DNA of 32,000 bases from Acaryochloris thomasi RCC1774. Lineage in GTDB: Bacteria > Cyanobacteriota > Cyanobacteriia > Thermosynechococcales > Thermosynechococcaceae. Shown piece after piece: positions 8,530 through 32,000 of this stretch. A program made the position numbers and the translations under genes. Within the stretch, counting starts at the first letter, position 1. Each line of letters begins with the position of its first letter. The stretch lies in contig NZ_PQWO01000006.1 in NCBI RefSeq assembly GCF_003231495.1, positions 150,001-182,000 of the forward strand. The letters run 5' to 3'. Below the pieces are notes generated by a model. The model saw nothing but the letters and a program-made list of their open reading frames with translations, was not told the origin of the DNA and made no database searches.

Positions 8530-8589
8530 TTTGGTGCTACGTATATCTCCAAGAAGGAGGCTGGAAGCTCAAACGTCAATTTACTCGTT

Positions 8590-9711: not shown

Positions 9712-9780
9712 CTTTAATCTGACCTCGCTTCTGTCAGTAAAAGACCGCCGCCATCAGGCACTGAAGTCATATTCGCTAGC

Positions 9781-11025: not shown

Positions 11026-11056
11026 TATGCGTTTGCCTCGTCTCAGATCAGGAGCG

Positions 11057-12322: not shown

Positions 12323-12480
12323 GATTGACCCTTGATCATAAAATTTAGAACTTAAGAAATGAAATATAAAAGTCGAAAGAAGGCTATCGGCTTACTTTTG
12401 TTAATAAATAGCATTCTAGGAGTTGAGTCGCTCGAAACTGGGCTGAAGCTCGGCACTATATTGAGCTATTTAAGATGAAA

Positions 12481-13371: not shown

Positions 13372-13439
13372 AAACTTATCTTTTTAAAATATAGAAGTAT
13401 TAATATCCATCGGTTCTCCCGCCAATGGCTCCCCTTTTT

Positions 13440-14570: not shown

Positions 14571-14583
14571 TGAACGTCCCTAT

Positions 14584-15645: not shown

Positions 15646-15715
15646 AGAGAGCCAACTTCTACTGAGGGTGGTGTTTCGGAGAAACCCGTGCAGCGCAAGG
15701 ATCTGATGCTTTTAC

Positions 15716-16663: not shown

Positions 16664-16766
16664 GACTTTGACTCATTAAGGTTGCACTATTTAGAACGCA
16701 AGCAGGGGGAATTTGCATTAACTATGCTTAGTCTGCACCCGTATGAACTGTAGATAAAGTGAATCT

Positions 16767-18712: not shown

Positions 18713-19603
18713 TTAGTGCATCAGCCAGCTAGATAAATCCTTCTGAATGTATTCTTGAAGTCTGAGTATATCTTCCTCATAGGTTTTTACCAATGTCTCC
18801 CGCAGGTCATCAGGCAAATCAGGCTTAGACTTTCTGTTTTTTTCTCGAATATTTCGCAGTATTATTTTCCATTGATCGGGGAGGTACGGCTTTAGAAAAG
18901 AAATTGGTGAACTAGGGACAAGCATCTTGTTGATGAGCAGGTTTTGAGGTACTGAAGATACGTTCTTCCGAGACAAGTCAGGAACGAATCCTGAGTCAAC
19001 TTCAAGAAATTTGAATATGTTTTTCAATGTGTCTAGCGGATTCTGGTTTAACTCTTCGTAGAGAAATATCTTGAGCTGCTGAGGTGAAAAAAGCTCAGAG
19101 TATCTAGATATTTGTTCATAATAGAATCCTGCTTCTTTATATCGCCAGCCCGGTCTCCAGTCTTCTTTAGAACGCTTTTCCTCTTCCTCAAGCGCTTCTT
19201 TGAAAGTTAAATTTTCAGCACCGTCCCTGCGCTGATAGCAGTAGGCTGAAAATGCACGATCGCAAGGGTTTCTAAGGACAGTAATTAACTTGGCTTGTGG
19301 TATGAGTTCCTTGATTCTGTTAGGAGATTTTGGGAAAAACATATACTCAGTGGAGGCTTCTCCAATTGCCTTCTCTGTTGTAACGCCTCTGAATAGACTT
19401 TTATACTCTTGGAGTCCCATCTGTTTTCTTCTTGCTCCTTTACGAACCAGACTATTCGGAGGGGTCGCATAAAACTCTGGCGCAAAAAAACGTGGTTCTT
19501 TAGCTGGACTGATATAAATTTCAGGATGCTGCCCTAGGTAGTGACACAGCGAAGTTGTGCCACATTTAGCAGGGCCTATTATTATAAAATTAGGTAGTGT
19601 CAT
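18713..19603 (-). CDS. Sulfotransferase, carbohydrate (heparan-sulfate NDST/3-OST-like) type
   Basis: 296 aa. FIIIGPAKCGTTSLCHYL (5'-PSB) and VLRNPCDRAFSAY (3'-PB) closely follow the IIG-x-x-K-x-GTT-x-L / LRNP-x-DR-x-x-S pattern of HS N- and 3-O-sulfotransferase domains. Confidence 0.85.
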   Translation of the reverse strand: MTLPNFIIIGPAKCGTTSLCHYLGQHPEIYISPAKEPRFFAPEFYATPPNSLVRKGARRKQMGLQEYKSLFRGVTTEKAIGEASTEYMFFPKSPNRIKELIPQAKLITVLRNPCDRAFSAYCYQRRDGAENLTFKEALEEEEKRSKEDWRPGWRYKEAGFYYEQISRYSELFSPQQLKIFLYEELNQNPLDTLKNIFKFLEVDSGFVPDLSRKNVSSVPQNLLINKMLVPSSPISFLKPYLPDQWKIILRNIREKNRKSKPDLPDDLRETLVKTYEEDILRLQEYIQKDLSSWLMH

Positions 19604-19828
19604 AAACTGGACTCCGTTAAGTATTTAGACTTGCAAGCTCTATCGATAGAGATATCTCTTGCAACAACGTAACTTTCCCCTGTTCTGAACTACCCCACCC
19701 ATTTCTATGACTCTTCGTTGCGTTTTCCTGCGTGTAGATACAAGTTTCTTACTCTGGCGCAATAGATGCTGCTCGTATCATCTGTCATTCGGGCTTTAGG
19801 CTCAGGATGTATTTGAGCCTATATCTTG

Positions 19829-20719
19829 TCAGTCTAACCAACGAGAAAGGTCTCGCTCAATAAGATTCTGAAGGCTGAGTATATCTTCCCTATAATCTTT
19901 AGTTAACTGTTCTTTAATATCTGCAGGCATAGCTGAAAACTTCTTTGAATTCCAGCTTCTGACTTTATTGGCAACGCTGACCCTGAGTTGTTCGGGCACA
20001 ACCTGCTTGGCAAAGGATCGTAGCGAGTTGCGCTCGCTTAGGATGTTCTGCAAAATTTTGACCTTAGGGTTGTTCGACACGTTCTTGTGAGTTAATTCTG
20101 GCGTGAAGGTATCATCAACCTCCAAAAACGAGAATAGATCTCGGATGACATCTAAGGGGCTAGCAATTAAGTCATCAAACAAATAAATTTTTAGTTGACT
20201 GCGATCAAATCGTTCGAAGTAGGGTTTGAGCTGTGCGTAGTAATATCCCCCCTGCCGATAATGCCAAAGGTGAGCCCAGTTTTGATGAATTCGCTTATCT
20301 TCTGCCTGTAGAGCCTCTGCGAACGAAAGAGACTCCTGAGCAATCAAATGCTTGTAGCAGGAATAAGCCCTATCAACTGGGTTCCGAAGGACTGCAATCA
20401 GTTTTGTGTCAGGGACGTAGTGGGCAATGCGATCAACCGCTTTTGCACTATAAAGGTATAGCGGTGAAGCCTCCCCGATTGCTGTTTCATGGGTAACGCC
20501 ATCGAATAGTTTGTGATATTCAGATAAAGTCGTTACTGAAGTGTGATTGATGGATTGATCAGGATTTTGAAAGTTCAACTCTTCATCTTCTAGAGCAAAA
20601 AAGCGAGGCTCCTTCAATGGGCTCATATAGATTTGAGGGTGCTGATCAAGGTAGTAGTAGAGAGAGGTTGTTCCTCCTTTCGCTGCACCAATGATCAAGA
20701 AGTTAGGTAGTCGATCCAT
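19829..20719 (-). CDS. Sulfotransferase, carbohydrate (heparan-sulfate NDST/3-OST-like) type; tandem paralog of 18713..19603
   Basis: 296 aa with FLIIGAAKGGTTSLYYYL and VLRNPVDRAYSCY. It is collinear with the neighbouring sulfotransferase along its full length, roughly 40-45% identity by eye. Confidence 0.85.
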   Translation of the reverse strand: MDRLPNFLIIGAAKGGTTSLYYYLDQHPQIYMSPLKEPRFFALEDEELNFQNPDQSINHTSVTTLSEYHKLFDGVTHETAIGEASPLYLYSAKAVDRIAHYVPDTKLIAVLRNPVDRAYSCYKHLIAQESLSFAEALQAEDKRIHQNWAHLWHYRQGGYYYAQLKPYFERFDRSQLKIYLFDDLIASPLDVIRDLFSFLEVDDTFTPELTHKNVSNNPKVKILQNILSERNSLRSFAKQVVPEQLRVSVANKVRSWNSKKFSAMPADIKEQLTKDYREDILSLQNLIERDLSRWLD

Positions 20720-20842: not shown

Positions 20843-23554
20843 TTATTCTGTTTTGCGTAAGCTTTGATCTAGGTTTCTTTGTATTTTTTTCGATAAGATT
20901 TGAACGTATGGCTCATGAACCATGGTGTTATGGTGCCCAGGAATCTCTTGAGTATTTACTTCTTTCTTTGTGACGGCTTCCCATCCGAGAGAAAGATTGT
21001 CTCGGATGGTCGTTGGACGCTCGACAGACCGATATAGATTTATCTTTCCTGAGTAGCAGAAATCTGGATGGTAGGAGTTAAATGCTTCGTAGTTAGCTAA
21101 CTTTATTTCACGATAAATAGGAAGGTTCTCATAGATCTCAGGAAGCTCGTTGTGCAGCGTATCATTAATCAAAAATGCTGTCTTATCAATTCTCTCCCAA
21201 ATGAAACTAGGAATGACACCCTTAAGTCGTTCAAGTATATAACCTACTTTGCGTCTTGGATTAACACGCGAAAGATTAAAAAAGTGAATATATATTTGAT
21301 AGGTCAGGGAAGGCATATGAATGCGAGGGCGAGGTTGATGCCCGGGTGCAAATGTGTCAATCATGCCAACAAATGCCACATCATGACCTTTTTCTTCAAG
21401 CTGTCTGGCAACTTCGTAAGCGACTAATCCGCCCCCTGAATGTCCGATTAAAGAATAGGGACCCTTTGGCTGCAGCGTTTGTATCTCTCGAATAAAATGA
21501 GCTGCCATATCTTCGATCTGGCTAAAAACAAGATTTTCCTTCCCACCTAGTGCGGGGGGCTGAAGCCCGTAGAATGGCTGCTCTTTATCGAGATAGGTCG
21601 CAATGTTGTGATAATGTAAAATACTGGGCTCAACTGAGTGCATGCAAAAAAGTGCAGGTTTAGAACCTTCTGGCTTAATGGCGACAAGTGAATTCCACTC
21701 AGATGAATTTTCTTCAGTTAGAAGAGCGGCGAGCTTCTCAATACTGGGGGCTTGAAAAATTTTACTGAAGGGAAGCTTCTTATCAAACGTCTCTTCAATT
21801 TGAGAGAACAGTTCAATGGCCGCTAGAGATTTTCCGCCGAGTTCAAAAAAGTTGTCTTGAACTCCAATCTGCTCTAGGTTTAAGACAGTCTGCCAAATCT
21901 TTGTCAGCTGTAATTCTGCAGGATTTCGAGGTGCCAGATAATTCTTGTTGTTGTCTGTATCTAGTGAGCGATTGAGAGCGTCGAGCTTATCTTTTAATTG
22001 TTTTTGCTCAACGGTCCCTAGTGGTCTAATATCAGCTAGCGTTGCTTCGGGTTGTGCAATCGCTCGCTCCAGTAGAATCATCCAGTGCTGAAACAGGCTT
22101 TTCAGGGTTGCCTTATCAAACAGATCTGTTTTGTATTGGATGTACCCACCCATATCATCGCCATCGGGCTCAACGAATATCGCTAGATCAAAGTCAGCTG
22201 TGTCTATTGCCATCTCTTCTTTGCTCAAGGCTTGAGCTGTCATTTGGCCGAGTTCAAGAGGCTGTTGTGGGCCATTCTGCTGACTTTGAAGAACAAATAG
22301 TGCGCGGGATAGAGGAACACCTGCTAATGATGGAAAGCCCGCAATTTGCTGCAGGGGCACGTCGGGGTAATCGTAGATGGCTGTGATCGTCTGTTGTTCC
22401 TGATTCATTAGTTCTCGGAACGTCAATTCACTCGTGACCCGCGTACGCAGGGGCAGAATATTGTTGAAATATCCAATCAGTTTTTGCGTATCACTGCGGC
22501 TGCGTCCTGCTACTGGTGAGCAAACAATGAGATCAGTCTGCCCGCTGTAGCAGTGCAATAATGCTTTGAATGACGCGAGAAGAACAGTGAACTGAGACTT
22601 ACCCTCCTGCTGGCAAAAATCAGTGAAGGCACGGCAGAGAGGACGCTCTATCCTGAAAGACTGACAGCGTCCCTGCATGCTTTGATTGTTTGAGTAGGCC
22701 CGATCGAGGGGCAGCTTCAAGGCCTCGGGAGTCTCATCGAAGACCTGCTGCCAATACTCTACTTGGGGTTTGAGAGCATCTCCTGAAAGCCACTCCTGAT
22801 GCCAAGCCGCAAAGTCGACATACTGAAAAGGCAGCTCTGGTAATGCGGAGGATATATTTGATCCTCCTGCATTGTATAGAGAAGATAGCTCTGAAATAAT
22901 TAAGCCCAAAGACCAGCCGTCTGCCACCATGTGATGGACCACAATAACCAGTAAGTATTCCTGTGACGATATCTGGAGCAAGGTGTAGTTGATCAGCGGT
23001 CCCTTGTCTAGCTCGAAGGGTTGCTTACTGATCTCTGCGACCCTGCGTAGCGCTTGGCTTTCTGCGTCACTCTGCTCCTGTAAATTAACGATCGTAAGGG
23101 CAGGGGGAGTTTCTGCTTGGATGACGACTTTGGGACCACTACCGTTACTGGTGTAGATAGTTCTTAGAACTTCATGGCGGTTAACAATTGTTTTCAGCGC
23201 GGCCTCAAGGCGTTCGATATGAAGATTGCCCGTCAGCCAAAAGGCCATGGGTAGGTTATATATACCCATGCCTGCCTGAAGCTGATCAACTAACCACAAG
23301 CGTTCTTGGGCCATTGAAACCTGCAAGGGGACATCTCGGGAAGTGACAGGGATAGGAGTAAGAGTCGAAGCTAAACCCGAGAAAGTCTTGGTCTGACTCA
23401 GTAATTGCAGCAGCTCTGGTTTGGACTGCTTTAAAGTCTCTTGGAGTTCAGGGGTAAATTTCCCTTTAGGAGCTCGGATGCGCAACCTATCGTTTTCAGC
23501 AGATACCTTGATCCCCAGTTGAGATAACTCAGATAGCAGACCCTCCAAACTCAT
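20843..23554 (-). CDS. NRPS-like termination protein lacking an adenylation domain: N-terminal docking domain - condensation (C) - thiolation (T) - thioesterase (TE); copy 1
   Basis: 903 aa. A TubC_N/beta-hairpin-type docking N-terminus (MSLEGLLSELSQLGIKVSAENDRLRIRAPKGKFTPELQETLKQSKPELLQLL). C motifs SMAQERLWLVDQL and HHMVADGWS (22910-22936). T motif FFELGGKSLAA (Ser codon 21827-21829). TE motif GHSGGG (Ser codon 21437-21439), with later D and H candidates (GMIDTF, PGHHNTM). GGAGGA lies 8 nt before the ATG. Confidence 0.85.
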   Translation of the reverse strand: MSLEGLLSELSQLGIKVSAENDRLRIRAPKGKFTPELQETLKQSKPELLQLLSQTKTFSGLASTLTPIPVTSRDVPLQVSMAQERLWLVDQLQAGMGIYNLPMAFWLTGNLHIERLEAALKTIVNRHEVLRTIYTSNGSGPKVVIQAETPPALTIVNLQEQSDAESQALRRVAEISKQPFELDKGPLINYTLLQISSQEYLLVIVVHHMVADGWSLGLIISELSSLYNAGGSNISSALPELPFQYVDFAAWHQEWLSGDALKPQVEYWQQVFDETPEALKLPLDRAYSNNQSMQGRCQSFRIERPLCRAFTDFCQQEGKSQFTVLLASFKALLHCYSGQTDLIVCSPVAGRSRSDTQKLIGYFNNILPLRTRVTSELTFRELMNQEQQTITAIYDYPDVPLQQIAGFPSLAGVPLSRALFVLQSQQNGPQQPLELGQMTAQALSKEEMAIDTADFDLAIFVEPDGDDMGGYIQYKTDLFDKATLKSLFQHWMILLERAIAQPEATLADIRPLGTVEQKQLKDKLDALNRSLDTDNNKNYLAPRNPAELQLTKIWQTVLNLEQIGVQDNFFELGGKSLAAIELFSQIEETFDKKLPFSKIFQAPSIEKLAALLTEENSSEWNSLVAIKPEGSKPALFCMHSVEPSILHYHNIATYLDKEQPFYGLQPPALGGKENLVFSQIEDMAAHFIREIQTLQPKGPYSLIGHSGGGLVAYEVARQLEEKGHDVAFVGMIDTFAPGHQPRPRIHMPSLTYQIYIHFFNLSRVNPRRKVGYILERLKGVIPSFIWERIDKTAFLINDTLHNELPEIYENLPIYREIKLANYEAFNSYHPDFCYSGKINLYRSVERPTTIRDNLSLGWEAVTKKEVNTQEIPGHHNTMVHEPYVQILSKKIQRNLDQSLRKTE
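20870..21679 (-). other. Copy 1: thioesterase domain (approximate)
   Basis: G-x-S-x-G as LIGHSGGGLVAYEVA, with downstream Asp and His candidates. This segment is visibly AT-rich. Confidence 0.75.
21707..21919 (-). other. Copy 1: thiolation (PCP) domain (approximate)
   Basis: YLAPRNPAELQLTKIWQTVLNLEQIGVQDNFFELGGKSLAAIELFSQI; predicted phosphopantetheinyl Ser codon at 21827-21829. Confidence 0.8.
22022..23329 (-). other. Copy 1: condensation domain (approximate)
   Basis: Runs from C1-like SMAQERLWL to ...LLERAIAQPEATLADIRPLG; HHMVADGWS catalytic motif at 22910-22936. Confidence 0.8.
23390..23554 (-). other. Copy 1: N-terminal docking domain (approximate)
   Basis: Residues 1-55. Pattern L-x-x-L-x-x-x-G-(I/V)-x-(L/V)-x-x-x-x-D-(R/K)-L-R-(I/V)-x-AP-K-G-x-x-TPEL is typical of TubC_N-type docking domains. 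Confidence 0.7.
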
Positions 23555-23707
23555 GTAATTTCCTCCATTTCCTTTTCTAGATCACCGGATAATGTAGCCT
23601 CCGGCATAAATCACATTGGTGCTTCTTCCTTGACTCAAGGCTTCATTCCCTTGTGAACCTGTATTGTTCGCTTTTTCTGCGGGAATTTTGGGTAATATAG
23701 CCTGATT

Positions 23708-26419
23708 CTAATTTGATGTCTGTGTCGGCTCGTTGAAACGGATTGATATTTTCTGAGCCTCGTCCAAGCATGCTCCGAGCTGCTGAGCTACGTCTTGAAC
23801 GTAGGGCTGGCTCAGCATTTTTCCATGATAGCCTGGGACAGAATGAACTTCTATCTTCCCGTCGATTAACTCTCCCCAACCTAGGTCAGGCGCGCGATAT
23901 ACATGTTGCTGGTCAACATTTCGTTCAGTGGCTCGAAGAATGGTTAACGTATCTGAGTAGATTCTGGGTTCGTAGTCTTTGACGGCTTTGTAATTGGCTT
24001 GCGCGACTCGGTAGGTCACTTCATCGATCGTGGAACTCCAGTGAGGACGTGACTTAGATGAGAAGAAAGGACGAAGGAGCCTGTTCGAGTAACTTTTTTC
24101 CTTGAGCTGATGCTGTAGGAAATTAAGAAAATATTTCAGAAAAACGAGAGGATGAACTCGAAATCGCAGAAGATTCATCGCATTATAAAGCCACCTCTTC
24201 AACGGTGAGACATCCCGTATTGAGTCAAACAAGACCAGCAGTGCTACCTTTTGACCTTTCTGACGAAGTTGCTGGGCCATTTCAAAGGCTACGATACCGC
24301 CAAAGGAGTATCCTCCAAGAAAATAAGGTCCTTCTGGCTGAAACGTTCTTATTTCTTGAAGATAGTCTGCGGCCATGTCTTCAATGCGAACATTTGCAGA
24401 GTGCTGACCATCTAGAGCACGGGACTCTAAACCATAGAAGGGCTGCTCTGAGTCTAAAAGACTCGCTAAAACTCGAAAATTGAGGACGTGACCCCCTCTG
24501 CCACAAACGCAGAAAAAAGGAGGCTTAGCACCATGGGGCTGCAAGGGAACAATCGGAGACCAGGGAGCCGACTCATCTTTCTTACGGATTGTTTCGGCTA
24601 GCTGTTCAACGGTTGGTGCTTCAATCAAGGTCGCCAACGGTAGCTTTTGATCACAGACCATTTTGATCTGATTGAACAACTGCAGCGCTAACAACGAAGA
24701 GCCGCCTAGATCAAAGAAGTTATCATGCACGCCAACCTGGTCTACACCCAAAACAGTTTGCCAAATTTGTGTTAACTGTAGCTCTACGGGATTGCGAGGG
24801 GCAACGTAGTGGGCCTGATCTTGTTCGGCTTTGGCTGAAAGCTGATTGAGTGCATCAACTTTATCTTGTAATTGTTGACGCTCAACGGTGCCGAGGGGCT
24901 GCAGCTCACTTAATGTTGCTTCTGGCTGCTCAAGTGCTCGCTCTAGCAAAGTCACCCAGTGACGAAAGAGATCTTCGACTGTGGATTGCTCAAAAAGCTC
25001 TGTTCGATACTGAATATATCCGCCGAACTGATGGGGGGCTGGCTCTACAAAAATTGCTAGATCAAAGTCAGCGGTATCAACGCCCATTTCTTCTTTTGTT
25101 AGCGGTTGAGCGGTTACTGCATCAAGGGTCAGAGCCTGCTGGGGACCGCTCTGTTGACTTTGAAGGACGAACAACGCTCGGGATAGGGAAATACCTGCTA
25201 AATTCGGGAAATTGGCAATCTGTTGCAAAGGTACGTCAGGATAGTCATAAATTGCGGTGACTGTTTTCTGCTCCTGTTGGATAAGGTCACGAAAGGTTTG
25301 GTGACTAGAAACCTGGGTCCGCAAGGGCAAGATGTTATTGAAATACCCGATTAACTGCTGTGTGTCGCTGCTGCGCCCCGCGACTGGCGAACAGACGATG
25401 AGGTCCTTTTGGCCGCTATAGCAGTGCAGCAATGCTTTGAAGGATGCCAAAAGGACCGTGAATTGAGACTTACCTTCCTGCTGGCAAAAAGCGATGAGGG
25501 CTTGAGAGAGCGAGCTATCTATATTGAAAGTCTGGCAGCGTCCCTGCGTGCTTTGACTGGTTGAGTGGAGCCGATCTAGAGGTAGCTTGAGGGTTTCTGG
25601 AGAGTCTGTAAAAATTTGGTGCCAATAGTCTAGCTGAGGCGTCAATTGTTCACTCGCTAGCCATTGTTTTTGCCAAGCTGCGAAGTCAGCATATTGAAAG
25701 GGAAGATCTGTGAAAGATACTTCGCCTGAGCCTTTGGCATTGTAGAACGCAGATATTTCAGAAATGATCAGTCCTAAGGACCAACCGTCTGCCACCATGT
25801 GATGAACAACAATAACGAGTAAGGACTCATCGGCAGCTAAGCGGATCAGGCTGTAGTGGATGAGAGGTCCTTGAGCGAGGTCAAAGGGTTTCTTACTCAG
25901 CTCTGCAACTAAGCCTAAAGCTTGAACTTCAGGTTCAGGATGCTGCTGTAGGTCAGTACAGGTCAGTGCTGGGGCCGTTGTCTCAATGATGACGCTGGGA
26001 CCGTCCCCACTGGGAGGATAGATAGTCCTGAGAACTTCATGTCGCTTGACCAGGGTTTGTAGGGACTTTTCGAGCCGATCTGCGTCAAGATGACCGGTCA
26101 GTCGAAACGCCATGGGCAGATTGTAGGTACTGCTGCCAGGTTGGAGCTGATCGACTAGCCACAGACGTTCCTGGGCGATAGAAACGGGTAGAGGAGCATC
26201 GCGGGAAAGAAGCGGAATGGCGTTCGCTGCCTTTGCAGGACTGGCAACTGTTCTTTGCTGGCTGAGGAGATTGAGCAGCTCTGGTTTTGATTGGTGCAGG
26301 GCGGCCCGCAGCTCTGGGGTAACTCGACCTTTTGGAGCCCGGACGCGCAGCTTGTCGTCCTGCACGGAAATTTTAATCCCACGTTGGGACAGATCGGACA
26401 ACAGTTGTTCCAGGCTCAT
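23708..26419 (-). CDS. NRPS-like termination protein lacking an adenylation domain: docking - C - T - TE; copy 2, start overlaps the PKS stop
   Basis: 903 aa. Docking N-terminus MSLEQLLSDLSQRGIKISVQDDKLRVRAPKGRVTPELRAALHQSKPELLNLL. C motifs SIAQERLWLVDQL and HHMVADGWS (25778-25804). T motif FFDLGGSSLLA (Ser codon 24695-24697). TE motif GGYSFGG (Ser codon 24305-24307). ATG 26419-26417 overlaps the PKS TGA 26418-26416 (ATGA). Confidence 0.85.
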   Translation of the reverse strand: MSLEQLLSDLSQRGIKISVQDDKLRVRAPKGRVTPELRAALHQSKPELLNLLSQQRTVASPAKAANAIPLLSRDAPLPVSIAQERLWLVDQLQPGSSTYNLPMAFRLTGHLDADRLEKSLQTLVKRHEVLRTIYPPSGDGPSVIIETTAPALTCTDLQQHPEPEVQALGLVAELSKKPFDLAQGPLIHYSLIRLAADESLLVIVVHHMVADGWSLGLIISEISAFYNAKGSGEVSFTDLPFQYADFAAWQKQWLASEQLTPQLDYWHQIFTDSPETLKLPLDRLHSTSQSTQGRCQTFNIDSSLSQALIAFCQQEGKSQFTVLLASFKALLHCYSGQKDLIVCSPVAGRSSDTQQLIGYFNNILPLRTQVSSHQTFRDLIQQEQKTVTAIYDYPDVPLQQIANFPNLAGISLSRALFVLQSQQSGPQQALTLDAVTAQPLTKEEMGVDTADFDLAIFVEPAPHQFGGYIQYRTELFEQSTVEDLFRHWVTLLERALEQPEATLSELQPLGTVERQQLQDKVDALNQLSAKAEQDQAHYVAPRNPVELQLTQIWQTVLGVDQVGVHDNFFDLGGSSLLALQLFNQIKMVCDQKLPLATLIEAPTVEQLAETIRKKDESAPWSPIVPLQPHGAKPPFFCVCGRGGHVLNFRVLASLLDSEQPFYGLESRALDGQHSANVRIEDMAADYLQEIRTFQPEGPYFLGGYSFGGIVAFEMAQQLRQKGQKVALLVLFDSIRDVSPLKRWLYNAMNLLRFRVHPLVFLKYFLNFLQHQLKEKSYSNRLLRPFFSSKSRPHWSSTIDEVTYRVAQANYKAVKDYEPRIYSDTLTILRATERNVDQQHVYRAPDLGWGELIDGKIEVHSVPGYHGKMLSQPYVQDVAQQLGACLDEAQKISIRFNEPTQTSN
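23750..24547 (-). other. Copy 2: thioesterase domain (approximate)
   Basis: G-x-S-x-G as FLGGYSFGGIVAFEMA; LVLFDS and VPGYHGKM are Asp and His candidates. Confidence 0.75.
24575..24787 (-). other. Copy 2: thiolation (PCP) domain (approximate)
   Basis: YVAPRNPVELQLTQIWQTVLGVDQVGVHDNFFDLGGSSLLALQLFNQI. Confidence 0.8.
24890..26197 (-). other. Copy 2: condensation domain (approximate)
   Basis: Runs from SIAQERLWL to LLERALEQPEATLSELQPLG; HHMVADGWS at 25778-25804. Confidence 0.8.
26255..26419 (-). other. Copy 2: N-terminal docking domain (approximate)
   Basis: Residues 1-55. By hand alignment, 38 of the first 54 residues are identical to copy 1. Confidence 0.7.
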
Positions 26420-29400
26420 ATGAAAAACTCCTCCATCTCTTCTTCTTCCAGCTCTTCGGAAGGGGTGGATTCCGGCAGCAAGATATTGGCAACTCTCAGC
26501 TTATGTAAGAGTTCCCCTGTTAGCTCCTGCAATGTACTGCCGCCGATCAGCTGCTCCATGGCAACGTCAATTTGGAGTTGACTTTGGAGGCGGGTCCTCA
26601 GCTCAACACCCATGAGGGAATCTAGGCCGAGGCGATTGAGAGAGTCTTTCGACTTGGGCCGTCGAGAGGCCGGTAATCCCAAAACCTCAGCAGATTGAAC
26701 CTGTAAGTATTTCAGGAGTAGCGAAAGACTCTCTTCTTCTGATGCTGTTTTTAGCTGCTGGAGTAGTTCATCGATCTGAATCGAGTCGCTTCCTTCTGCG
26801 CTAGCTGCTGCGGAAATAGGGCTCGCTAGCTCAGACAGCAGACTTGTATAGGCTTCTCCTGAAAAGCGCTGGATGAAGGTGGACCAGTTAACGGGCAAGA
26901 CACCGACATGGCTTCGGGACTCGGCAATCATCTGCTCTAGAGCCTGAAGCCCCTGTTCTACGGGAATGGAGCTGATGCCTTGAGAGGATAAGCGTGCGCG
27001 GTCTTGTTCGCTCATGCTGGCGGCCATGCCGACCTCTGCCCAGGGACCCCAGCTGAGGCTGAGTCCAGGCAGGCCTAGGGACTGGCGGTAGTGGGCGAGG
27101 GCATCCATGAAGGCGTTGGCGGCGGCGTAGTTGCCTTGACCTTGGGCACCTAAGAGGGCGGCAACGGAGGAGAAGAACACCATGAAGTCTAGAGGGTGTT
27201 TCTGAGTGAGCTTGTGCAAATGCCAGGCTCCGTTGACTTTGGGTTCCATTACTTCGAGGATGCGATCGCAACTCTGCGAAACTAGCAATCCATCATCGAT
27301 TACCCCAGCCGCATGAATAATCCCACGCAGCGCCGGATACGGTTCGATCTCTTTGAGGGTCCGCTCCACAGCTTCTGCTTTGGAAACATCAGCCGCGACC
27401 ACATGGACTTGAGTTCCCGCCTCCTGAAGCTGGTCGATGACAGCCTGGGCCGTTGGACTTGCGCCCCGGCGTCCGGTCAGAGCGACATGCTTAGCCCCTT
27501 GTTTTGAAAGCCACTTGGCAATTTCTAAACCTAAAGCGCCTAATCCACCTGTTACTAAGTAGGTCGCATCTTCCCGAACAACCTCGGTTTTTGTTGGAGA
27601 TTGAGGAGGCTGAGAAATCACAACCTTACCAATGTGCTTGGCCTGGGCCATAAATCGGAACGCGCCGATATAGTCCTGCATCGGAAAGGCCGTGAAAGGC
27701 AGCGGTCTCAGGGAGCCGTCCTGGAAAGCGGCCATCAGGACCGTCAGCATCTCTTTGATGCGGGCGGGCTGCGGAACGGCAATGTCGTCGCCGAGATCGT
27801 AGGGCATATAGTTGATGTCTTTGCCCAGTGCCTTGGCTTCCTCTTGCGTCCACAGGCCAATTTTGCCCAGCTCTAGGAACCGACCGCCGCGACCGATGGT
27901 GTCAAAGGTCTTGGTCATGAAGTCACCTGCCAAGCTGTTGAGGACAACATCGACGCCCTCTCCGTTAGTCAAGGACAGCACTTCGTCAGCAAAGTCCAGC
28001 GTGCGGGAGTTCATGACGTGCTGAACACCCATCGATTTAAGAAAGTCCCACTTGCCCGGGCTAGCGGTGGCAAATACTTCAGCTCCAGCTCTTTGGGCGA
28101 GTTGGACGGCAGCTTGACCGACGCCACCGGCTGCGGCATGGATGAGGATGCGATCGCCCGCTTTAATCTCAGCCAGGGTGTGCAGACCATAGTAGGCGGT
28201 CAGATAGTTGGTGGGGACTGTCGCGGCTTCTTCAAAGCTTAGTTCGACAGGTTTGGGAATCACGAACTGGGCGTCAGCAATCACGTGGCTGCTGAGACAG
28301 TTGGTTGCGATCGCAACAATCACTGCATCACCCACGGCAAAATCAGTAACGCCGTCGCCCACAGAGGTTACAGTGCCTGCACATTCATAACCGAATGGCA
28401 TATTCTCAGGGTCTTCTAGCCCCAGAGTCTTAAAGTAATCCTGCAGCTTGCCCAAGACCGTGAGCACATCTTTAAAGTTCAAGCCCGTTGCCTGGACCTT
28501 GACCTCCACCTGAGCCGGTCCAGGAGTGGGTCGCTGCAGCGGCTCTAGCGTTAAATTCTCTAAAATCCCGTATTCCTTGAGCTTGAGCTGGAACGGTTGC
28601 TCAGCCTTTTTCTGCTCAGTCCGGCGGACCAATCGGGCGGTGTAGCGAACGTCCTGTCGATAGGCGACTTGCTTCTCTAAATCAACGCCTGTCACTTCAG
28701 CCAACAACGCCTCAGCCTTATTTGCCGCAGCAAACGGATCAAGGTCCACCATCTTGCAGTGCAGCTCGGGATGTTCTAGAGCAATCACGCGCCCTAGCCC
28801 CCATAAAGGAGACTGCTGAACCTGAACAGATTCTGGAACTTGTCCCACAGCTTGTGCCCCAGCGGTCACGAGCCAAACCCCAGCAGAAACATTGGCCTGA
28901 CTGAGAGCCTGGACAAGGTGCAGAACGCCGCCACAGGTTTTAACCTGCGTTTTTTGAATCTCAGGCAACGTCAATGTGCTCACCGCTTTAGTCGCTTGAT
29001 CAAGGCTTCCGAGGTGAACGACGCCGTAGCCCCCCTCTCGCTTCAGGTCAAGATTACTCAGTAATTGCTGAACGTCCTCAGGTGCTTCTGGATTGACGGT
29101 GTAGCGATCACCCTGCCGACCGTAGGCTGACCCGCTGGCAATCAACTTGCAATGATGGCCTTTGTCCTGTAGTGAGGTGGCAAGATTCTCCCCTACCTGT
29201 GCCTGATCCATAAAAATGAGCCAGTTATTCGGGATCTTTGCTACATCGCCTGCGCCGACCTCTTGGGGTTCCCAAGCATACTCGTATAGCCAGTCTTCAA
29301 CATTCTGCTGTAGACTTCGCATCAACGCCTCACGGCTGGCTCGTCGCAACGCTAGATCTCGAATCCGAGCAACCACGTTTCCGTGATCGTCCAACAGCGT

Positions 29401-32000
29401 CAGCGTTGCAGTCAAACTTTGGTCATCTCGCTGGAGCTGCTCGGCATGGCACCAAAGATGCGTCTCTGGCGCGCGATAAAGATCTAGAGCGGCCAAACTG
29501 ACCGGAACGTAGGTGTCATCAGAGTCCTCGCCGGAGAAGAGGGCACCCACGACCTGGAGACAGGAATCTAAGAGGGCCGGGTGCAGTTTGAATTGCTTGA
29601 TTTCAGAGGCAACAGAAGCGGGTAGCTCAATTTCTCCTAAGACCTGCTGAGGCTGCGTCCAAAGCTGCTTCACACCCTGGAAGGTTTCACCGTAGCCAAT
29701 GCCCTGATCTGCAAACTTCTGGTAGTGAGCCGCCGCCGCAATTGTTTCAGTATGTGCTGCCTTCAGCGCCGTCAAATCAACGGGAGGTACTTCTAATTCC
29801 TGGGGGACTCGCACATTGCCAGAAGCATGTAACGTCCAAACAGGTTCGGTCTGCTTCAGTTCTTTGAGGCTAAACACCTGGAACGAATAGCTCTGATTGC
29901 CCTCGGCATTAAGAACACACTGAAGCGTCTGCGTCTCATCGTCCGACAGCGCTAGCGCCCGTTGAACCTTGACATCTTCAACGGCTAATGTCTCAGATTG
30001 AATCAGGCTGGAGCCAGCAGCCAGCGCCATTTCCAGGTATCCAGTGGCGGGCATCACCGCTGTCTCAAACAGACAGTGATCGTTCAGAAAAGCTGGGATC
30101 GCAGGACTAACCTGAGACTCAAAGCAAATGTTAGTCATCCCAGCTAGATGGAGGCGCTGCCCCAATAGCGGATGCATCGTTTGACTACGGGCATCACTGG
30201 GAAGAGCCTGTCCCTGTATTTTTGGTGCAGGATCAATCCAGTGACGGTGACGCTGGAACGGATAGGTCGGCAGCGGCACCCGGTAGCGCTGCTCATCAAC
30301 ATAGAAGCCAGCCCAGTCCAGCTTGACACCAGCCTGCCAGAGCTGACCGACGGTTTCGAGTACAAAGCCAACGTCTGAAGCTTCCTCTTTAGGATGGCGA
30401 ATGGAGGAAAGCACGACTCGCTCAGCTCCAGTCTGCTTGGAAGCCAGAGACTTCAGCATCCGTCCAGGACCAACTTCCAGAAGGACGCGCGTTTCATCCT
30501 CTAACAGTTCCTTGACTCCAGCGGTGAAGCGCACCGTGGATCGGAGATGGTTCGCCCAGTAGCTAGGATCAGTAGCTTCTGCATCTGTAATCCAAGTTCC
30601 CGTCACGTTTGAAATGTAGGGAATCTGAGGCGGATTGAGCTGCACCTGTCGCACCCGCTCAGTGAAAGGCTCCAGGATAGGATCCATCATGAAGGAGTGA
30701 AAAGCGTGGGATGTGTGCAGGGTTCGGAAGTCAATACTTTCGTCTTCCAGCTTCTGCTTGAGAGCATCAATAGCCTCTGCAGGTCCGGCCACGGTACATA
30801 GAGATGGAGCATTACTGGTCGCCAGAGCGAGCTGATCATTCAACAGTGCTTCGACTTCATCTTCTGGCAAGAAAACGGTCAGCATCGAGCCTGACGGCAG
30901 GGACTGCATCAACCGGCCCCGTTCTGCAACGAGCGCCAACGCTTCTTCTAGCGAGAAGACGCCCGCTAAGCAAGCCGCCGTATATTCGCCAATGCTGTGG
31001 CCAATCATGGCCTGCGGCTGAATGCCCCAAGCCATCCAGAGCTGAGCAACGGCATACTCTGTGACAAAGAGCGCAGGCTGAGTGATGTTAGTTTGCTTCA
31101 GGAGCTCGGTGTTGGCTGCAGCATCTCCCGAGGTGTTGTAAATGATTTCGCGTAGATCTAGGCCAAGGTGCGGCTCTAGGATTTCTGCGCAGCGATCGAC
31201 TGTTTCTCTGTAAACGCGCTCTGTTTCGTAGAGATCGCGGCCCATATTGACGTATTGAGCGCCCTGTCCCGACAGCATAAAGACAATCGAAGGCTGATGG
31301 GTGTCGGGGGCGTAGATGGCTTCTTCGGGTTCCCATGTGGTTAGGGTTGCGATCGCATCCTCCCCACGTTCACAAACCACTGCTGTCCGATATTCGAACG
31401 CTCGCCGACCCACCTTTGATGTGTAGGCAACATCAGCTAGATTTTCAATCGGAGTCTCACGTAGATAGATAGCAAAATTTTCAACCGCCGCCGCCAGAGC
31501 TTCCTCTGTCTTGCCAGAAAGCACCAATAGCTGCCAGGAACGAGATTCTCCAGAGGCATCTATCTTGGGTGATTCTTCCAGTACCGCATGGGCATTGGTA
31601 CCCCCGACCCCGAACGAGCTAAGCCCTGCCCGACGTGGACCCCCATTCGTCTCCCAAGGCAGCAGCTCTTTGTTGATGTAAAAAGGGCTGTTCTCTAGAT
31701 CAAGCTGAGGATTCGGTGTTTCAAAGTTGACAACTGGCGGAATCTGCTTGTGCTTGAGCGCCAAGGTCGCCTTAATTAAACCCGCAACGCCTGCCGCTCG
31801 ATTCAGATGACCAATATTGCTTTTGATAGATCCCAGGGCACAGAATCCCTGTTGTTCGGTTTGCTCACGAAAGACTTTGGTTAAAGCTGCCACCTCAATG
31901 GGATCGCCCATTTGGGTTCCTGTACCGTGGGTCTCAATGTAGGAAATACTCTCAGGCTCAACTCCAGCCAGAGCGTGAGCCTCAGCAACTACATCTGCTT
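26416..32000 (-). CDS. Type I polyketide synthase, 3' portion: KS(partial)-AT-DH-ER-KR-ACP plus an acidic C-terminal docking tail; the 5' end lies beyond the window
   Basis: The track ORF starts at Met 31911, but the frame stays open to 32000. Hand translation upstream gives ...ADVVAEAHALAGVEPESISYIETHGTGTQ-MGDPIE, so the gene continues off-window. Domain motifs are listed in the sub-features. It ends ...LPESTPSEELEEEEMEEFFI. Confidence 0.95.
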   Translation of the reverse strand, partial: ADVVAEAHALAGVEPESISYIETHGTGTQMGDPIEVAALTKVFREQTEQQGFCALGSIKSNIGHLNRAAGVAGLIKATLALKHKQIPPVVNFETPNPQLDLENSPFYINKELLPWETNGGPRRAGLSSFGVGGTNAHAVLEESPKIDASGESRSWQLLVLSGKTEEALAAAVENFAIYLRETPIENLADVAYTSKVGRRAFEYRTAVVCERGEDAIATLTTWEPEEAIYAPDTHQPSIVFMLSGQGAQYVNMGRDLYETERVYRETVDRCAEILEPHLGLDLREIIYNTSGDAAANTELLKQTNITQPALFVTEYAVAQLWMAWGIQPQAMIGHSIGEYTAACLAGVFSLEEALALVAERGRLMQSLPSGSMLTVFLPEDEVEALLNDQLALATSNAPSLCTVAGPAEAIDALKQKLEDESIDFRTLHTSHAFHSFMMDPILEPFTERVRQVQLNPPQIPYISNVTGTWITDAEATDPSYWANHLRSTVRFTAGVKELLEDETRVLLEVGPGRMLKSLASKQTGAERVVLSSIRHPKEEASDVGFVLETVGQLWQAGVKLDWAGFYVDEQRYRVPLPTYPFQRHRHWIDPAPKIQGQALPSDARSQTMHPLLGQRLHLAGMTNICFESQVSPAIPAFLNDHCLFETAVMPATGYLEMALAAGSSLIQSETLAVEDVKVQRALALSDDETQTLQCVLNAEGNQSYSFQVFSLKELKQTEPVWTLHASGNVRVPQELEVPPVDLTALKAAHTETIAAAAHYQKFADQGIGYGETFQGVKQLWTQPQQVLGEIELPASVASEIKQFKLHPALLDSCLQVVGALFSGEDSDDTYVPVSLAALDLYRAPETHLWCHAEQLQRDDQSLTATLTLLDDHGNVVARIRDLALRRASREALMRSLQQNVEDWLYEYAWEPQEVGAGDVAKIPNNWLIFMDQAQVGENLATSLQDKGHHCKLIASGSAYGRQGDRYTVNPEAPEDVQQLLSNLDLKREGGYGVVHLGSLDQATKAVSTLTLPEIQKTQVKTCGGVLHLVQALSQANVSAGVWLVTAGAQAVGQVPESVQVQQSPLWGLGRVIALEHPELHCKMVDLDPFAAANKAEALLAEVTGVDLEKQVAYRQDVRYTARLVRRTEQKKAEQPFQLKLKEYGILENLTLEPLQRPTPGPAQVEVKVQATGLNFKDVLTVLGKLQDYFKTLGLEDPENMPFGYECAGTVTSVGDGVTDFAVGDAVIVAIATNCLSSHVIADAQFVIPKPVELSFEEAATVPTNYLTAYYGLHTLAEIKAGDRILIHAAAGGVGQAAVQLAQRAGAEVFATASPGKWDFLKSMGVQHVMNSRTLDFADEVLSLTNGEGVDVVLNSLAGDFMTKTFDTIGRGGRFLELGKIGLWTQEEAKALGKDINYMPYDLGDDIAVPQPARIKEMLTVLMAAFQDGSLRPLPFTAFPMQDYIGAFRFMAQAKHIGKVVISQPPQSPTKTEVVREDATYLVTGGLGALGLEIAKWLSKQGAKHVALTGRRGASPTAQAVIDQLQEAGTQVHVVAADVSKAEAVERTLKEIEPYPALRGIIHAAGVIDDGLLVSQSCDRILEVMEPKVNGAWHLHKLTQKHPLDFMVFFSSVAALLGAQGQGNYAAANAFMDALAHYRQSLGLPGLSLSWGPWAEVGMAASMSEQDRARLSSQGISSIPVEQGLQALEQMIAESRSHVGVLPVNWSTFIQRFSGEAYTSLLSELASPISAAASAEGSDSIQIDELLQQLKTASEEESLSLLLKYLQVQSAEVLGLPASRRPKSKDSLNRLGLDSLMGVELRTRLQSQLQIDVAMEQLIGGSTLQELTGELLHKLRVANILLPESTPSEELEEEEMEEFFI
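26419..26478 (-). other. PKS C-terminal acidic docking tail
   Basis: LPESTPSEELEEEEMEEFFI is an acidic run ending in hydrophobic residues. Short linear motifs of this kind are bound by TubC_N/beta-hairpin docking domains. Confidence 0.6.
26530..26760 (-). other. PKS acyl carrier protein domain (approximate)
   Basis: LNRLGLDSLMGVELRTRL; phosphopantetheinyl Ser codon at 26617-26619. Confidence 0.85.
26990..27575 (-). other. PKS ketoreductase catalytic domain, B-type-like (approximate)
   Basis: Rossmann motif YLVTGGLGALGLEIAKWL; HAAGVIDDGLL (an IDD variant of the LDD B-type marker); FSSVAALLGAQGQGNYAAANAFMD (Tyr codon 27127-27129). Confidence 0.85.
27615..28600 (-). other. PKS enoylreductase domain (approximate)
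   Basis: MDR-type fold with NADPH motif LIHAAAGGVGQAAVQLAQRAGAEVFATAS (about 28114-28140). Confidence 0.85.
29350..30176 (-). other. PKS dehydratase domain (approximate)
   Basis: HPLLGQRL N-terminus; LNDHCLFETAVMPATGYLEMA (His codon 30076-30078, with E in place of the usual G in H-x-x-x-G-x-x-x-x-P); GYGETFQG; LHPALLDSCLQ (D-x-x-x-Q). Confidence 0.8.
30400..31290 (-). other. PKS acyltransferase domain, predicted malonyl-CoA specific (approximate)
   Basis: FMLSGQGAQY; GHSIGE (Ser codon 30994-30996); HAFHS (30694-30708). The HAFH motif is the established malonyl-specific signature, whereas YASH indicates methylmalonyl. Confidence 0.85.
31565..32000 (-). other. PKS ketosynthase domain, C-terminal part
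   Basis: HGTGT (31915-31929), NIGHLNRAAG, and GTNAHAVLEE at the domain end. Confidence 0.9.

What the first reader, a model, noticed from the sequence alone, without database searches (positions are those of the whole stretch)
20843..26478. Two termination modules with near-identical N-terminal docking domains behind a single PKS tail: predicted branching (one-to-two) hand-off
Both 903-aa proteins begin with a TubC_N-type docking domain; 38 of the first 54 residues are identical by hand alignment. Only the PKS ends in an acidic, hydrophobic-tipped tail (EELEEEEMEEFFI) of the kind such domains bind. Neither C-T-TE ends in such a tail (copy 2 ends ...RFNEPTQTSN, copy 1 ends ...DQSLRKTE), and each carries its own TE. 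A serial PKS -> copy 2 -> copy 1 assembly line is therefore hard to rationalise.

The simpler reading is that both compete for the same ACP-bound acyl chain and release two different products. This resembles the non-collinear, shared-docking logic reported for the vatiamide pathway of Moorena. Here the branch would sit at the termination step and involve A-less modules.
Basis: partly seen in the sequence, partly recalled or inferred. Interest (0 to 1): 0.75.

Follow-up and report, generated by a model that had tools for sequence, protein, structure and literature searches.

The report
One PKS tail, two release modules
A cyanobacterial polyketide synthase is followed by two intact release modules that share the same receiving half (docking plus condensation domain) but carry unrelated carrier-thioesterase halves, so one lipid chain is probably handed to two different exits inside a sulfated-sugar gene cluster. 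This is a plausible variant of a docking logic that is already known.

Summary
Two 903-aa proteins (23708-26419 and 20843-23554, minus strand) are TubC_N docking domain + C + T + TE with no A domain. They share 38 of their first 54 residues. Only the upstream PKS ends in an acidic, hydrophobic-tipped tail (EELEEEEMEEFFI).

"Near-identical" overstates it. The docks are 70% identical, about the same as the C domains (68%).

The new result is that copy A is a mosaic. Its dock-C half belongs to the same clade as copy B and as the single copy of a more distant relative. Its T-TE half (T 55%, TE 33% identical to B) lies outside that clade. Both copies are under strong purifying selection and keep all catalytic motifs.

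Five related cyanobacterial lineages carry both copies. One carries only the B type, directly behind the PKS, and it also lacks one of the two adjacent sulfotransferases.

A one-to-two hand-off from the PKS is therefore the best reading (about 0.55), and a serial line is unlikely. It is not proven. The region upstream of the PKS is unseen, nothing identifies what loads the A-less T domains, and binding cannot be computed here. One tail recruiting several such docking domains is already documented. I class this as a new variant of a known kind, of moderate interest.

The parts
26416..31998 (-). Type I PKS module, cut by the window end: KS (C-terminal part)-AT (HAFH motif, which I take as malonyl-type from general knowledge)-DH-ER-KR-ACP
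   Evidence: Pfam; translation; HAFH motif
26416..26457 (-). C-terminal docking tail (short linear motif) of the PKS, EELEEEEMEEFFI plus stop. It is the only such tail in the window.
   Evidence: Conserved as DELEEEMEEFFI and DELEEEMEELVI in relatives
23708..26419 (-). The start overlaps the PKS stop (ATGA). It is a mosaic of a family dock-C half and a foreign T-TE half.
26258..26419 (-). Docking domain of A (aa 1-54), beta-hairpin type (TubC_N)
   Evidence: Pfam E 1.5e-17; matches to solved docking domains
24869..26191 (-). Condensation domain of A (aa 77-517), HHMVADG at aa 206; 68% identical to that of B
23750..24778 (-). T (aa 548-611, LGGSSL) and TE (aa 634-890, GYSFG) of A. Only 55% and 33% identical to B, and outside the B/L008 clade.
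   Evidence: Asp732 and the C-terminal His were read from the translation
23555..23707 (-). A-B spacer of 153 nt with GGAGGA 7 nt before the B start. No minus-strand terminator-like site was found.
20843..23554 (-). It is the orthologue of the single copy in L008.
23393..23554 (-). Docking domain of B (aa 1-54)
   Evidence: Pfam E 4.3e-18
21995..23323 (-). Condensation domain of B (aa 78-520), HHMVADG at aa 207
20894..21907 (-). T (aa 550-612, LGGKSL) and TE (aa 634-887, GHSGG) of B
   Evidence: Asp733 and the His were read from the translation
18713..20719 (-). Two sulfotransferase genes, ST1 (19829-20719) and ST2 (18713-19603). Their nearest solved relatives are a bacterial sulfotransferase (3RNL) and heparan-sulfate N- and 3-O-sulfotransferases. 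ST2 is absent together with CTTE_A in L008.
7159..18623 (-). Conserved downstream block: ABC exporter (best matches PglK/MsbA/HepA), a 315-aa unknown, GT2, GT4, a third sulfotransferase, three more glycosyltransferases, and a 456-aa protein with six hydrophobic segments. The part from the ABC exporter to the fourth glycosyltransferase is collinear in the relatives, as far as their contigs reach.

Best explanation
The locus encodes a branch point at chain release. A fully reducing PKS module (malonyl-type AT motif) makes a saturated acyl chain on an ACP. That ACP carries an acidic tail ending in FFI.

Two separate A-less proteins each start with a beta-hairpin docking domain that can bind that tail and present the ACP to an ordinary amide-forming-type C domain. 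The two proteins share this receiving half: dock 70% and C 68% identical, from one ancestor that already served this PKS. They differ in the releasing half. The T-TE of copy A is of a different lineage from the T-TE of copy B.

The most likely mechanism has three steps:
- Both C domains take the same acyl chain and join it to a nucleophile carried on their own T domain. That nucleophile is loaded in trans by an enzyme not visible here.
- The two unlike TE domains then release or transfer the product in two different ways.
- The result is either two different lipids or two acylations of one glycoconjugate, which is then glycosylated, sulfated and exported by the conserved downstream genes.

Shown: gene architecture, motif integrity, mosaic ancestry, purifying selection, conserved synteny, and copy-number variation.

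Inferred: that both docks bind the tail, that the T domains are loaded in trans, the nature of the products, and the link to the sulfated glycan genes.
For: Architecture and motifs:
- Domain architecture and intact catalytic motifs in both copies.
- The PKS carries the only docking tail in the window. Partners of other family members end the same way: L005 ...DREEFEI and L006 ...ELEKFTI.
- The docks align to solved beta-hairpin docking domains. The positions equivalent to the Kj12C strand residues that form salt bridges to the tail (review PMC9113145) are K/R23 and R27 in both copies. The hydrophobic positions L24, L37, L48, L49 and L52 are invariant.

Ancestry:
- L008 has a single B-type C-T-TE behind the PKS.
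- In dock+C, A, B and the L008 copy are monophyletic in 100/100 bootstraps and roughly equidistant (67-70%).
- In T and TE, B groups with L008 in 99-100/100, and A falls outside.
- dN between A and B: dock 0.20, C 0.21, T 0.32, TE 0.67. Between B and L008-B: 0.23, 0.21, 0.21, 0.20.
- The T-TE of A matches many T-TE protein ends, a good share of which also carry AMP-binding domain hits as in ordinary NRPS termination modules, at 42-48%. That is better than its match to any B type.

Function of both copies:
- Omega is 0.02-0.14 in all four domains of both copies wherever dS can be estimated.
- A and B are adjacent, with the same downstream synteny, in three further lineages: L001/L003, L007 and L009. 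Both are also present, on separate short contigs, in a 95%-identical MAG.
- A and ST2 are missing together in L008.

Literature: one tail can recruit several docking-domain subunits (PMC9113145).
Against: - No binding or structure test was possible.
- The window ends inside the PKS, and no relative with upstream sequence was found. Another tail-bearing carrier upstream cannot be excluded.
- No A domain or other loader for the T domains lies in the 26 kb downstream. The acceptor is unknown and the C-domain chemistry is assumed.
- The B orthologue in L001/L003 has Q23 and L27 in place of the basic strand residues. B may therefore dock more weakly there.
- In a related system the tail is dispensable and the docking domain grips the ACP itself (PMC13324335). 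Presence or absence of a tail is therefore an imperfect guide to partners.
- The co-absence of A and ST2 rests on one lineage.
Confidence: 0.55

Rival explanations
1. Only one module is the working partner of this PKS, most likely A, whose start codon overlaps the PKS stop. The other receives its chain from a different tail-bearing carrier encoded upstream of the window, or is used only under other conditions.
For: - The window ends inside the PKS, and no relative supplied upstream sequence.
- A is translationally coupled to the PKS, whereas B has its own ribosome-binding site after a 153-nt spacer.
- The B orthologue in L001/L003 lacks the basic residues at strand positions 23 and 27.
Against: - In L008 the only C-T-TE is of the B type and follows the PKS, so the PKS is the ancestral partner of B.
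- Both docks keep the conserved hairpin in the window.
- Tail-to-dock pairing is known to be promiscuous.
- No minus-strand terminator-like site separates A from B.
Confidence: 0.2
2. The two modules are redundant isoenzymes that give the same product. The duplicate serves dosage or robustness.
For: They have the same architecture, conserved dock and C domains, and the same operon.
Against: - The T-TE halves are of different lineages, with TE 33% identical.
- Both halves of both copies are under strong purifying selection across lineages.
- A co-varies with an extra sulfotransferase.
Confidence: 0.1
3. A serial assembly line, PKS -> A -> B, with A passing its product to B.
For: Gene order is collinear and both genes are on one strand.
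Against: - A ends in an intact TE and has no docking tail.
- The C-terminus of A is variable in length and sequence among orthologues (...EPTQTSN...KQSIDQV...GGMALD...EAQKA).
- B has the same kind of dock as A, matched to the PKS tail.
Confidence: 0.03
4. The A-less C-T-TE is not an amino-acid-adding module at all. The C domain moves the acyl chain onto its own T domain, or onto a non-amino-acid acceptor, and the TE then transfers it to a sugar. The two copies would be two acyltransferase heads for the sulfated glycan.
For: - A-less C-T-TE relatives recur in loci with no A-domain module for the T domain within about 10 kb. They sit instead with a free-standing ACP (all four loci), acyl-CoA dehydrogenases (L006, L104) and a fatty-acyl-AMP-ligase-like enzyme (L104): L006, L101, L103, L104.
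- The B orthologue in L009 is fused to an acyl-CoA-dehydrogenase-like domain.
- The downstream genes are glycan-directed.
Against: - The C domains score best against ordinary amide-forming elongation C domains.
- I know of no precedent for a C domain doing carrier-to-carrier thioester transfer.
- A-less C-T-TE modules loaded in trans are known (SyrE; PMC8949500).
Confidence: 0.12

Closest known systems
Tail-to-beta-hairpin docking (TubB/TubC, EpoA/EpoB, Bamb_5917/Bamb_5915, Kj12A-C)
   Same: An N-terminal TubC_N-type domain sits directly before a C domain. The upstream carrier ends in a short acidic tail with a hydrophobic tip. Sequence matches to the solved docking domains.
   Different: Here one tail faces two termination modules. 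Binding was not measured.
Rhabdopeptide NRPS Kj12ABC, and the further one-tail, several-partner cases reported by Kosol et al. 2019 (as reviewed in PMC9113145)
   Same: One tail can recruit more than one docking-domain subunit, giving several products.
   Different: Those are iterative NRPS elongation modules with A domains. Here the alternatives are two A-less C-T-TE release modules behind a PKS.
Depsipeptide HDAC-inhibitor PKS-NRPS systems (FR-901375, spiruchostatin, burkholdac; PMC13324335)
   Same: A conserved PKS interfaces through a docking domain with alternative NRPS partners. The authors propose an ancestral BGC encoding two such partners and making two products.
   Different: That two-partner state is hypothetical there. 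Here it is extant and conserved in several lineages. The partners here are single A-less modules, and the divergent part is T-TE rather than A domains.
Vatiamide pathway of Moorena (Moss et al. 2019)
   Same: Combinatorial docking of one upstream line with several downstream modules. I have this only from a citing paper, PMC10127204.
   Different: The primary paper was not available. The branch here is at termination.
Syringomycin SyrE terminal C-T-TE module
   Same: An A-less C-T-TE termination module whose T is loaded in trans (PMC8949500).
   Different: SyrE's module is fused to eight complete modules, and its loader (SyrB1/SyrC) is in the cluster. Here the modules are free-standing, duplicated, follow a PKS, and no loader is visible.
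Mycobacterial sulfolipid-1 logic (Pks2, PapA1/PapA2, Stf0, transporter); from my own knowledge, not tested here
   Same: A PKS-made acyl chain, two paralogous C-domain-type acyl-transfer proteins, sulfotransferase(s) and an exporter in one pathway to a sulfated glycolipid.
   Different: PapA proteins are stand-alone C-domain homologues without dock, T or TE. The match to the PapA5 model is only E 2e-5. No product is known here.

Membership tests
Beta-hairpin (TubC_N) docking domain | Sequence match to PF18563 above the curated cut-off | tested here: met
   63.9 and 65.6 bits against a cut-off of 26
Beta-hairpin (TubC_N) docking domain | Homology to solved alpha-beta-beta-alpha-alpha docking domains, at the N-terminus directly before a C domain | tested here: met
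   Matches AerJ, EpoB, TubC, Bamb_5915 and Kj12B/C. The domain covers aa 1-54 and the C domain starts at aa 77. The fold itself was not modelled.
Beta-hairpin (TubC_N) docking domain | A partner carrier ending in a short C-terminal tail that binds the second strand of the hairpin | tested here: inconclusive
   A suitable tail exists on the PKS ACP and nowhere else in the window. Binding is not testable with these tools.
Canonical NRPS termination module (C-A-T-TE) | An adenylation domain that loads the module's T domain | tested here: not met
   No AMP-binding hit in either protein, and only about 30 aa between C and T. No A domain in any other window ORF of at least 100 aa that was scanned, that is, all but six short ORFs nested inside longer genes.
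Canonical NRPS termination module (C-A-T-TE) | Catalytic motifs of C (HHxxxDG), T (GGxS) and TE (Ser-Asp-His) | tested here: met
   plus direct reading of the translations
One-tail, several-dock branching hand-off | Two or more docking-domain subunits and a single tail-bearing donor in the cluster | tested here: inconclusive
   Two docks and one tail within the window. The cluster upstream of the PKS is not visible.
One-tail, several-dock branching hand-off | Both docks bind the tail, and both downstream modules are acylated from the same carrier | not testable with these tools
   Only indirect support: common ancestry with the single PKS-partnered copy in L008, and conserved hairpin residues.
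   38/54 = 70%, equal to the C domain (68%). There is no within-genome homogenisation.
Serial (collinear) assembly line PKS -> A -> B | The upstream module ends in a carrier domain with a docking tail and has no releasing TE | tested here: not met
   A ends in an intact TE and a non-conserved, non-acidic C-terminus.

The most novel reading that the evidence does not exclude
The A-less dock-C-T-TE protein is a portable off-loading cassette that attaches a PKS-made lipid to a sulfated glycan, giving a lipid-anchored sulfated oligo- or polysaccharide in cyanobacteria. On this reading, evolution created a second exit from the same PKS by copying the receiving half (dock-C) and grafting on a foreign T-TE, together with an extra sulfotransferase. 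It would be a natural, still-working example of the 'one PKS, two docking partners' state that has so far only been proposed as an evolutionary stepping stone.
Probability: 0.2. Interest if true: 0.75.

Novelty: new variant of a known kind. Interest (0 to 1): 0.5.

Why it matters
If both modules really draw on the same PKS carrier, this locus is a compact natural template for engineering alternative release of one polyketide chain. The design would keep the dock-C receiving half and exchange the T-TE half.

It would also be a living example of the two-partner intermediate proposed for the evolution of hybrid PKS-NRPS diversity.

It further points to a lipid component, not described as far as I could find, in a cyanobacterial sulfated-glycan pathway. 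Finally, it raises an open question about how a widespread family of A-less C-T-TE proteins gets its T domain loaded.

Tried and rejected
- Exact-sequence lookup of copy A found nothing.
- A genome-collection scan returned only one close relative, the same contig as L001.
- A homologue search with the PKS fragment found no orthologue (best 44%). A metagenome scan with the KS-AT part gave at best 60% identity. The region upstream of the PKS therefore stayed out of reach.
- I considered modelling L008's natural dock+tail ORF instead. I dropped the idea because its second helix is frameshifted.
- The vatiamide paper is not held.
- The last codons of the A-B spacer read LEKEMEEIT*, which could be a relic of the PKS tail. 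This is only weakly supported: 28 of 2000 shuffles reach the DNA alignment score, and the match is largely the ribosome-binding site GGAGGA. I do not rely on it.
- GC content by domain gave no clear signal for the T-TE swap.
- Searches for the donor of the T-TE half of A found nothing closer than 42-48%.
- Literature searches found no characterised cluster combining a PKS, C-T-TE, sulfotransferases and glycosyltransferases.
- The NCBIfam hit to the Pks13 T-TE model is no better than the hit to EntF, so it says nothing about release chemistry.
Full report
**1. What is in the sequence**

All genes of interest lie on the minus strand.

- A type I PKS runs from the window end (31998) to 26416. The visible 1860 residues are KS (C-terminal part)-AT-DH-ER-KR-ACP. 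It has an HAFH motif in the AT, which I take as malonyl-type from general knowledge. It ends ...LLPESTPSEELEEEEMEEFFI.
- Pfam finds TubC_N, Condensation, PP-binding and Thioesterase in both, all far above threshold, and no adenylation domain. Only about 30 residues separate C from T.
- HHMVADG, the carrier serine (LGGSSL in A, LGGKSL in B) and the TE nucleophile (GYSFG in A, GHSGG in B) are intact. The Asp 27 residues after the TE serine and the C-terminal His can be read directly in the translations.
- Among 323 stop-to-stop frames of at least 40 aa in the window, only the PKS ends in an acidic run with hydrophobic residues at -1 and -3.

**2. The docking pair**

The N-termini match the solved beta-hairpin docking domains of AerJ, EpoB, TubC, Bamb_5915 and Kj12B/C.

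According to the review PMC9113145, the last five residues of the upstream tail form a strand against the second hairpin strand. Two charged strand residues (R24 and E28 in Kj12C) form salt bridges to it, and there is a hydrophobic face to helices 2 and 3.

By the HMMER register, those positions correspond to residues 23 and 27 here. They are K23/R27 in A and R23/R27 in B. The strand reads K/R-L-R-V/I-R-A-P-K-G, and the hydrophobic positions L24, L37, L48, L49 and L52 are invariant across nine family members. The complementarity between R27 and the glutamate at -4 of the tail is my inference.

The tail is conserved in relatives (DELEEEMEEFFI, DELEEEMEELVI). Partners of distant family members end similarly...DREEFEI and ...ELEKFTI. 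This supports the idea that it is the cognate motif.

The C-termini of A and B are neither acidic nor conserved among orthologues.

**3. The main new finding: copy A is a mosaic**

| Domain | A vs B identity | dN, A vs B | dN, B vs L008 copy |
|---|---|---|---|
| Dock | 70% | 0.20 | 0.23 |
| C | 68% (up to 93% in one 30-residue window) | 0.21 | 0.21 |
| T | 55% | 0.32 | 0.21 |
| TE | 33% | 0.67 | 0.20 |

The docks are therefore not specially conserved. "Near-identical" is an overstatement.

- In neighbour-joining bootstraps with ten outgroups, dock+C of A, B and the single copy of the relative L008 are monophyletic in 100/100 replicates, but unresolved among themselves (67-70% pairwise).
- For T and TE, B groups with the L008 copy in 99 and 100 of 100 replicates and A falls outside. 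The three TEs are monophyletic in only 12/100.
- The T-TE half of A matches many T-TE protein ends at 42-48%. A good share of these also carry AMP-binding domain hits, as in ordinary NRPS termination modules. That is better than its match to any B-type protein.
- A is no closer to B of the same genome than to B orthologues elsewhere. There is therefore no concerted evolution of the docks.
- Between orthologues, omega is 0.02-0.14 in every domain of both copies wherever dS can be estimated. Both copies are maintained as functional genes.

In short, the two proteins share one receiving half and carry two unrelated releasing halves.

**4. Relatives and copy number**

The closest homologues come from uncultured cyanobacteria. 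One source names "Cyanobacteria bacterium P01_A01_bin.17" at 95% identity.

| Lineage | C-T-TE copies present | Further features |
|---|---|---|
| L001/L003 | A and B, both about 79% to the window copies | PKS-A-B-ST-ST-ABC-unknown-GT2-GT4-ST-GT-GT, collinear with the window |
| L007 | End of A (92%) plus B (87%) | Same downstream order |
| L009 | A (81%) plus B (79%) | B is fused to an acyl-CoA-dehydrogenase-like domain |
| P01_A01_bin.17 MAG | Both types | On separate short contigs |
| L008 (most divergent, about 68%) | One C-T-TE, B type in T-TE | One adjacent sulfotransferase (ST1 type, 71%; no ST2) |

In L008 a 111-aa ORF lies between the PKS and B. It consists of a dock 5' part (82.5% nt identity to the 5' end of B, with frameshifts in helix 2) joined to a copy of the PKS 3' tail (88.6% nt identity). 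It looks like a decaying 335-bp tandem duplication of the gene junction.

Two points follow.
- The B type is the ancestral partner of this PKS.
- A and ST2 are present or absent together, although this rests on one lineage.

**5. Context**

- ST1 and ST2 are closest to a bacterial sulfotransferase structure (3RNL) and to heparan-sulfate N- and 3-O-sulfotransferases. They are therefore glycan-directed. By my judgement they are not the PKS-embedded type used in curacin biosynthesis.
- The ABC protein scores best against the lipid-linked-oligosaccharide and lipid A flippases PglK and MsbA, and against HepA.
- Also present are five glycosyltransferases, a third sulfotransferase, a 456-aa protein with six hydrophobic segments, and a Wzc-like tyrosine autokinase/co-polymerase on the other strand.
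- The collinearity of the PKS/C-T-TE genes with this block in all relatives suggests one pathway to a lipid-bearing sulfated glycan or glycolipid. This is an inference.

**6. The unresolved step: what loads the T domains**

- The C domains score best against ordinary amide-forming elongation C domains: TycC, PvdL, Txo, LgrA. This points to an aminoacyl-T acceptor loaded in trans, as in the A-less C-T-TE end of SyrE (PMC8949500).
- No A domain lies in the 26 kb downstream, and the upstream region could not be recovered.
- Other members of this A-less family sit in loci without an A-domain module within about 10 kb. Instead they sit with a free-standing ACP, and some with acyl-CoA dehydrogenases or a fatty-acyl-AMP-ligase-like enzyme. 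These loci are L006/L101, L103, and the Gloeothece PCC 7822 plasmid locus L104.
- In L005 the family member follows a C-A-T module.

This leaves open an unconventional role for the cassette. I give that a low probability.

**7. Weighing the readings**

- A serial PKS -> A -> B line is very unlikely. A has an intact TE and no tail, and its C-terminus is variable.
- A one-to-two hand-off is the best-supported reading (about 0.55), on the following grounds: common ancestry of both docks with a PKS-partnered single copy; conserved hairpin residues; a single, highly conserved tail; intact and selected catalytic domains; and a releasing half that has been exchanged in one copy.
- Type I PKS modules are homodimers (established knowledge), so one synthase offers two tails. 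The two modules need not strictly compete.
- The main caveats are the unseen upstream region, the absence of any binding test, and the Q23/L27 substitutions in the B dock of one lineage. In addition, a 2026 study found that in a related system the tail is dispensable and the dock grips the ACP itself (PMC13324335).
- Whether the outcome is two products or two acylations of one glycoconjugate cannot be decided.

**8. Comparison with what is known**

Tail-to-dock pairing is widespread and promiscuous. The rhabdopeptide NRPS, and further cases found by Kosol et al., show one tail recruiting several docking-domain subunits (PMC9113145). The 2026 study proposes an ancestral cluster in which one PKS served two docking-domain NRPS partners. 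Vatiamides are cited as combinatorial docking (PMC10127204), but I could not read the primary paper.

The concept is therefore known. Four things are particular here.
- The branch lies at the release step.
- Both alternatives are free-standing A-less C-T-TE modules.
- They were made by copying dock-C and joining it to a foreign T-TE.
- The arrangement is conserved in several lineages inside a sulfated-glycan locus.

**9. Verdict**

I class it as a new variant of a known kind, with interest about 0.5.

Noticed in passing
L008:516-851 (ena:ERZ893782:k147_1557876): A 111-aa ORF between the PKS and the single C-T-TE. It joins a docking-domain 5' part (82.5% nt identity to the 5' end of B, frameshifted in helix 2) to a copy of the PKS C-terminal tail (88.6% nt identity, ...DELEEEMEEIVI*). 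It looks like a decaying 335-bp tandem duplication of the gene junction, and would encode a 'dock plus tail' mini-protein if expressed.
   Followed up: partly
L008 versus window 18713-19603 and 23708-26419: The only relative that lacks CTTE_A also lacks the ST2 sulfotransferase. This suggests that A and ST2 form a functional pair, but it rests on a single lineage.
   Followed up: partly
L009:2782-6831: In one lineage the B-type C-T-TE is fused at its C-terminus to an acyl-CoA-dehydrogenase-like domain (1349 aa). Free-standing or fused acyl-CoA dehydrogenases also accompany A-less C-T-TE genes in L006 and in the Gloeothece PCC 7822 plasmid locus L104.
   Followed up: partly
L006, L101, L103, L104 (NC_014533.1 388776-421190): A-less C-T-TE proteins (and C-T didomains in L006/L101) recur in compact cyanobacterial loci with no A-domain module nearby. 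All four loci have a free-standing ACP. L006 and L104 have acyl-CoA dehydrogenases, and L104 has a fatty-acyl-AMP-ligase-like fusion. How their T domains are loaded is unexplained.
   Followed up: partly
window 23555-23600 (minus strand, just upstream of the B start): The last codons of the A-B spacer read ...GDLEKEMEEIT*, resembling the PKS tail ...EEEEMEEFFI*. This could be a relic of a duplication that included the PKS 3' end. The DNA match is weak (28 of 2000 shuffles reach it) and coincides with the ribosome-binding site.
   Followed up: yes
P0006 / L001:6184-8901, dock residues 23 and 27: The B orthologue of one lineage has Q23 and L27 where all other A and B docks have basic residues, on the strand predicted to contact the tail. 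Docking of B may be weaker there.
   Followed up: no
window 15716-16663 (minus strand): A 315-aa soluble protein with no Pfam, NCBIfam or PDB match. It is conserved between the ABC exporter and the GT2 gene in the relatives whose contigs reach that far. Its motif GLRRSGNHAIINW looks to me like a sulfotransferase-type phosphate-binding loop, so it may be a fourth, divergent sulfotransferase.
   Followed up: no
window 7159-31998: GC content varies strongly along the cluster: PKS 0.54, CTTE_A 0.49, CTTE_B 0.46, ST2 and ABC 0.41, GTb/GTc 0.53-0.56. This suggests assembly from parts with different histories.
   Followed up: partly
window 4491-6872 (+) and 7159-8529 (-): A Wzc-like chain-length determinant/tyrosine autokinase and a 456-aa protein with six hydrophobic segments and no family match (possibly a polymerase) flank the glycosyltransferase block. 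This points to a Wzy-type polysaccharide pathway alongside the ABC exporter.
   Followed up: no
window 2033-2788 (minus strand): An LmeA-like phospholipid-binding protein (PF11209, E 7.5e-38) lies beyond the cluster edge. Its relation to the cluster is unknown.
   Followed up: no
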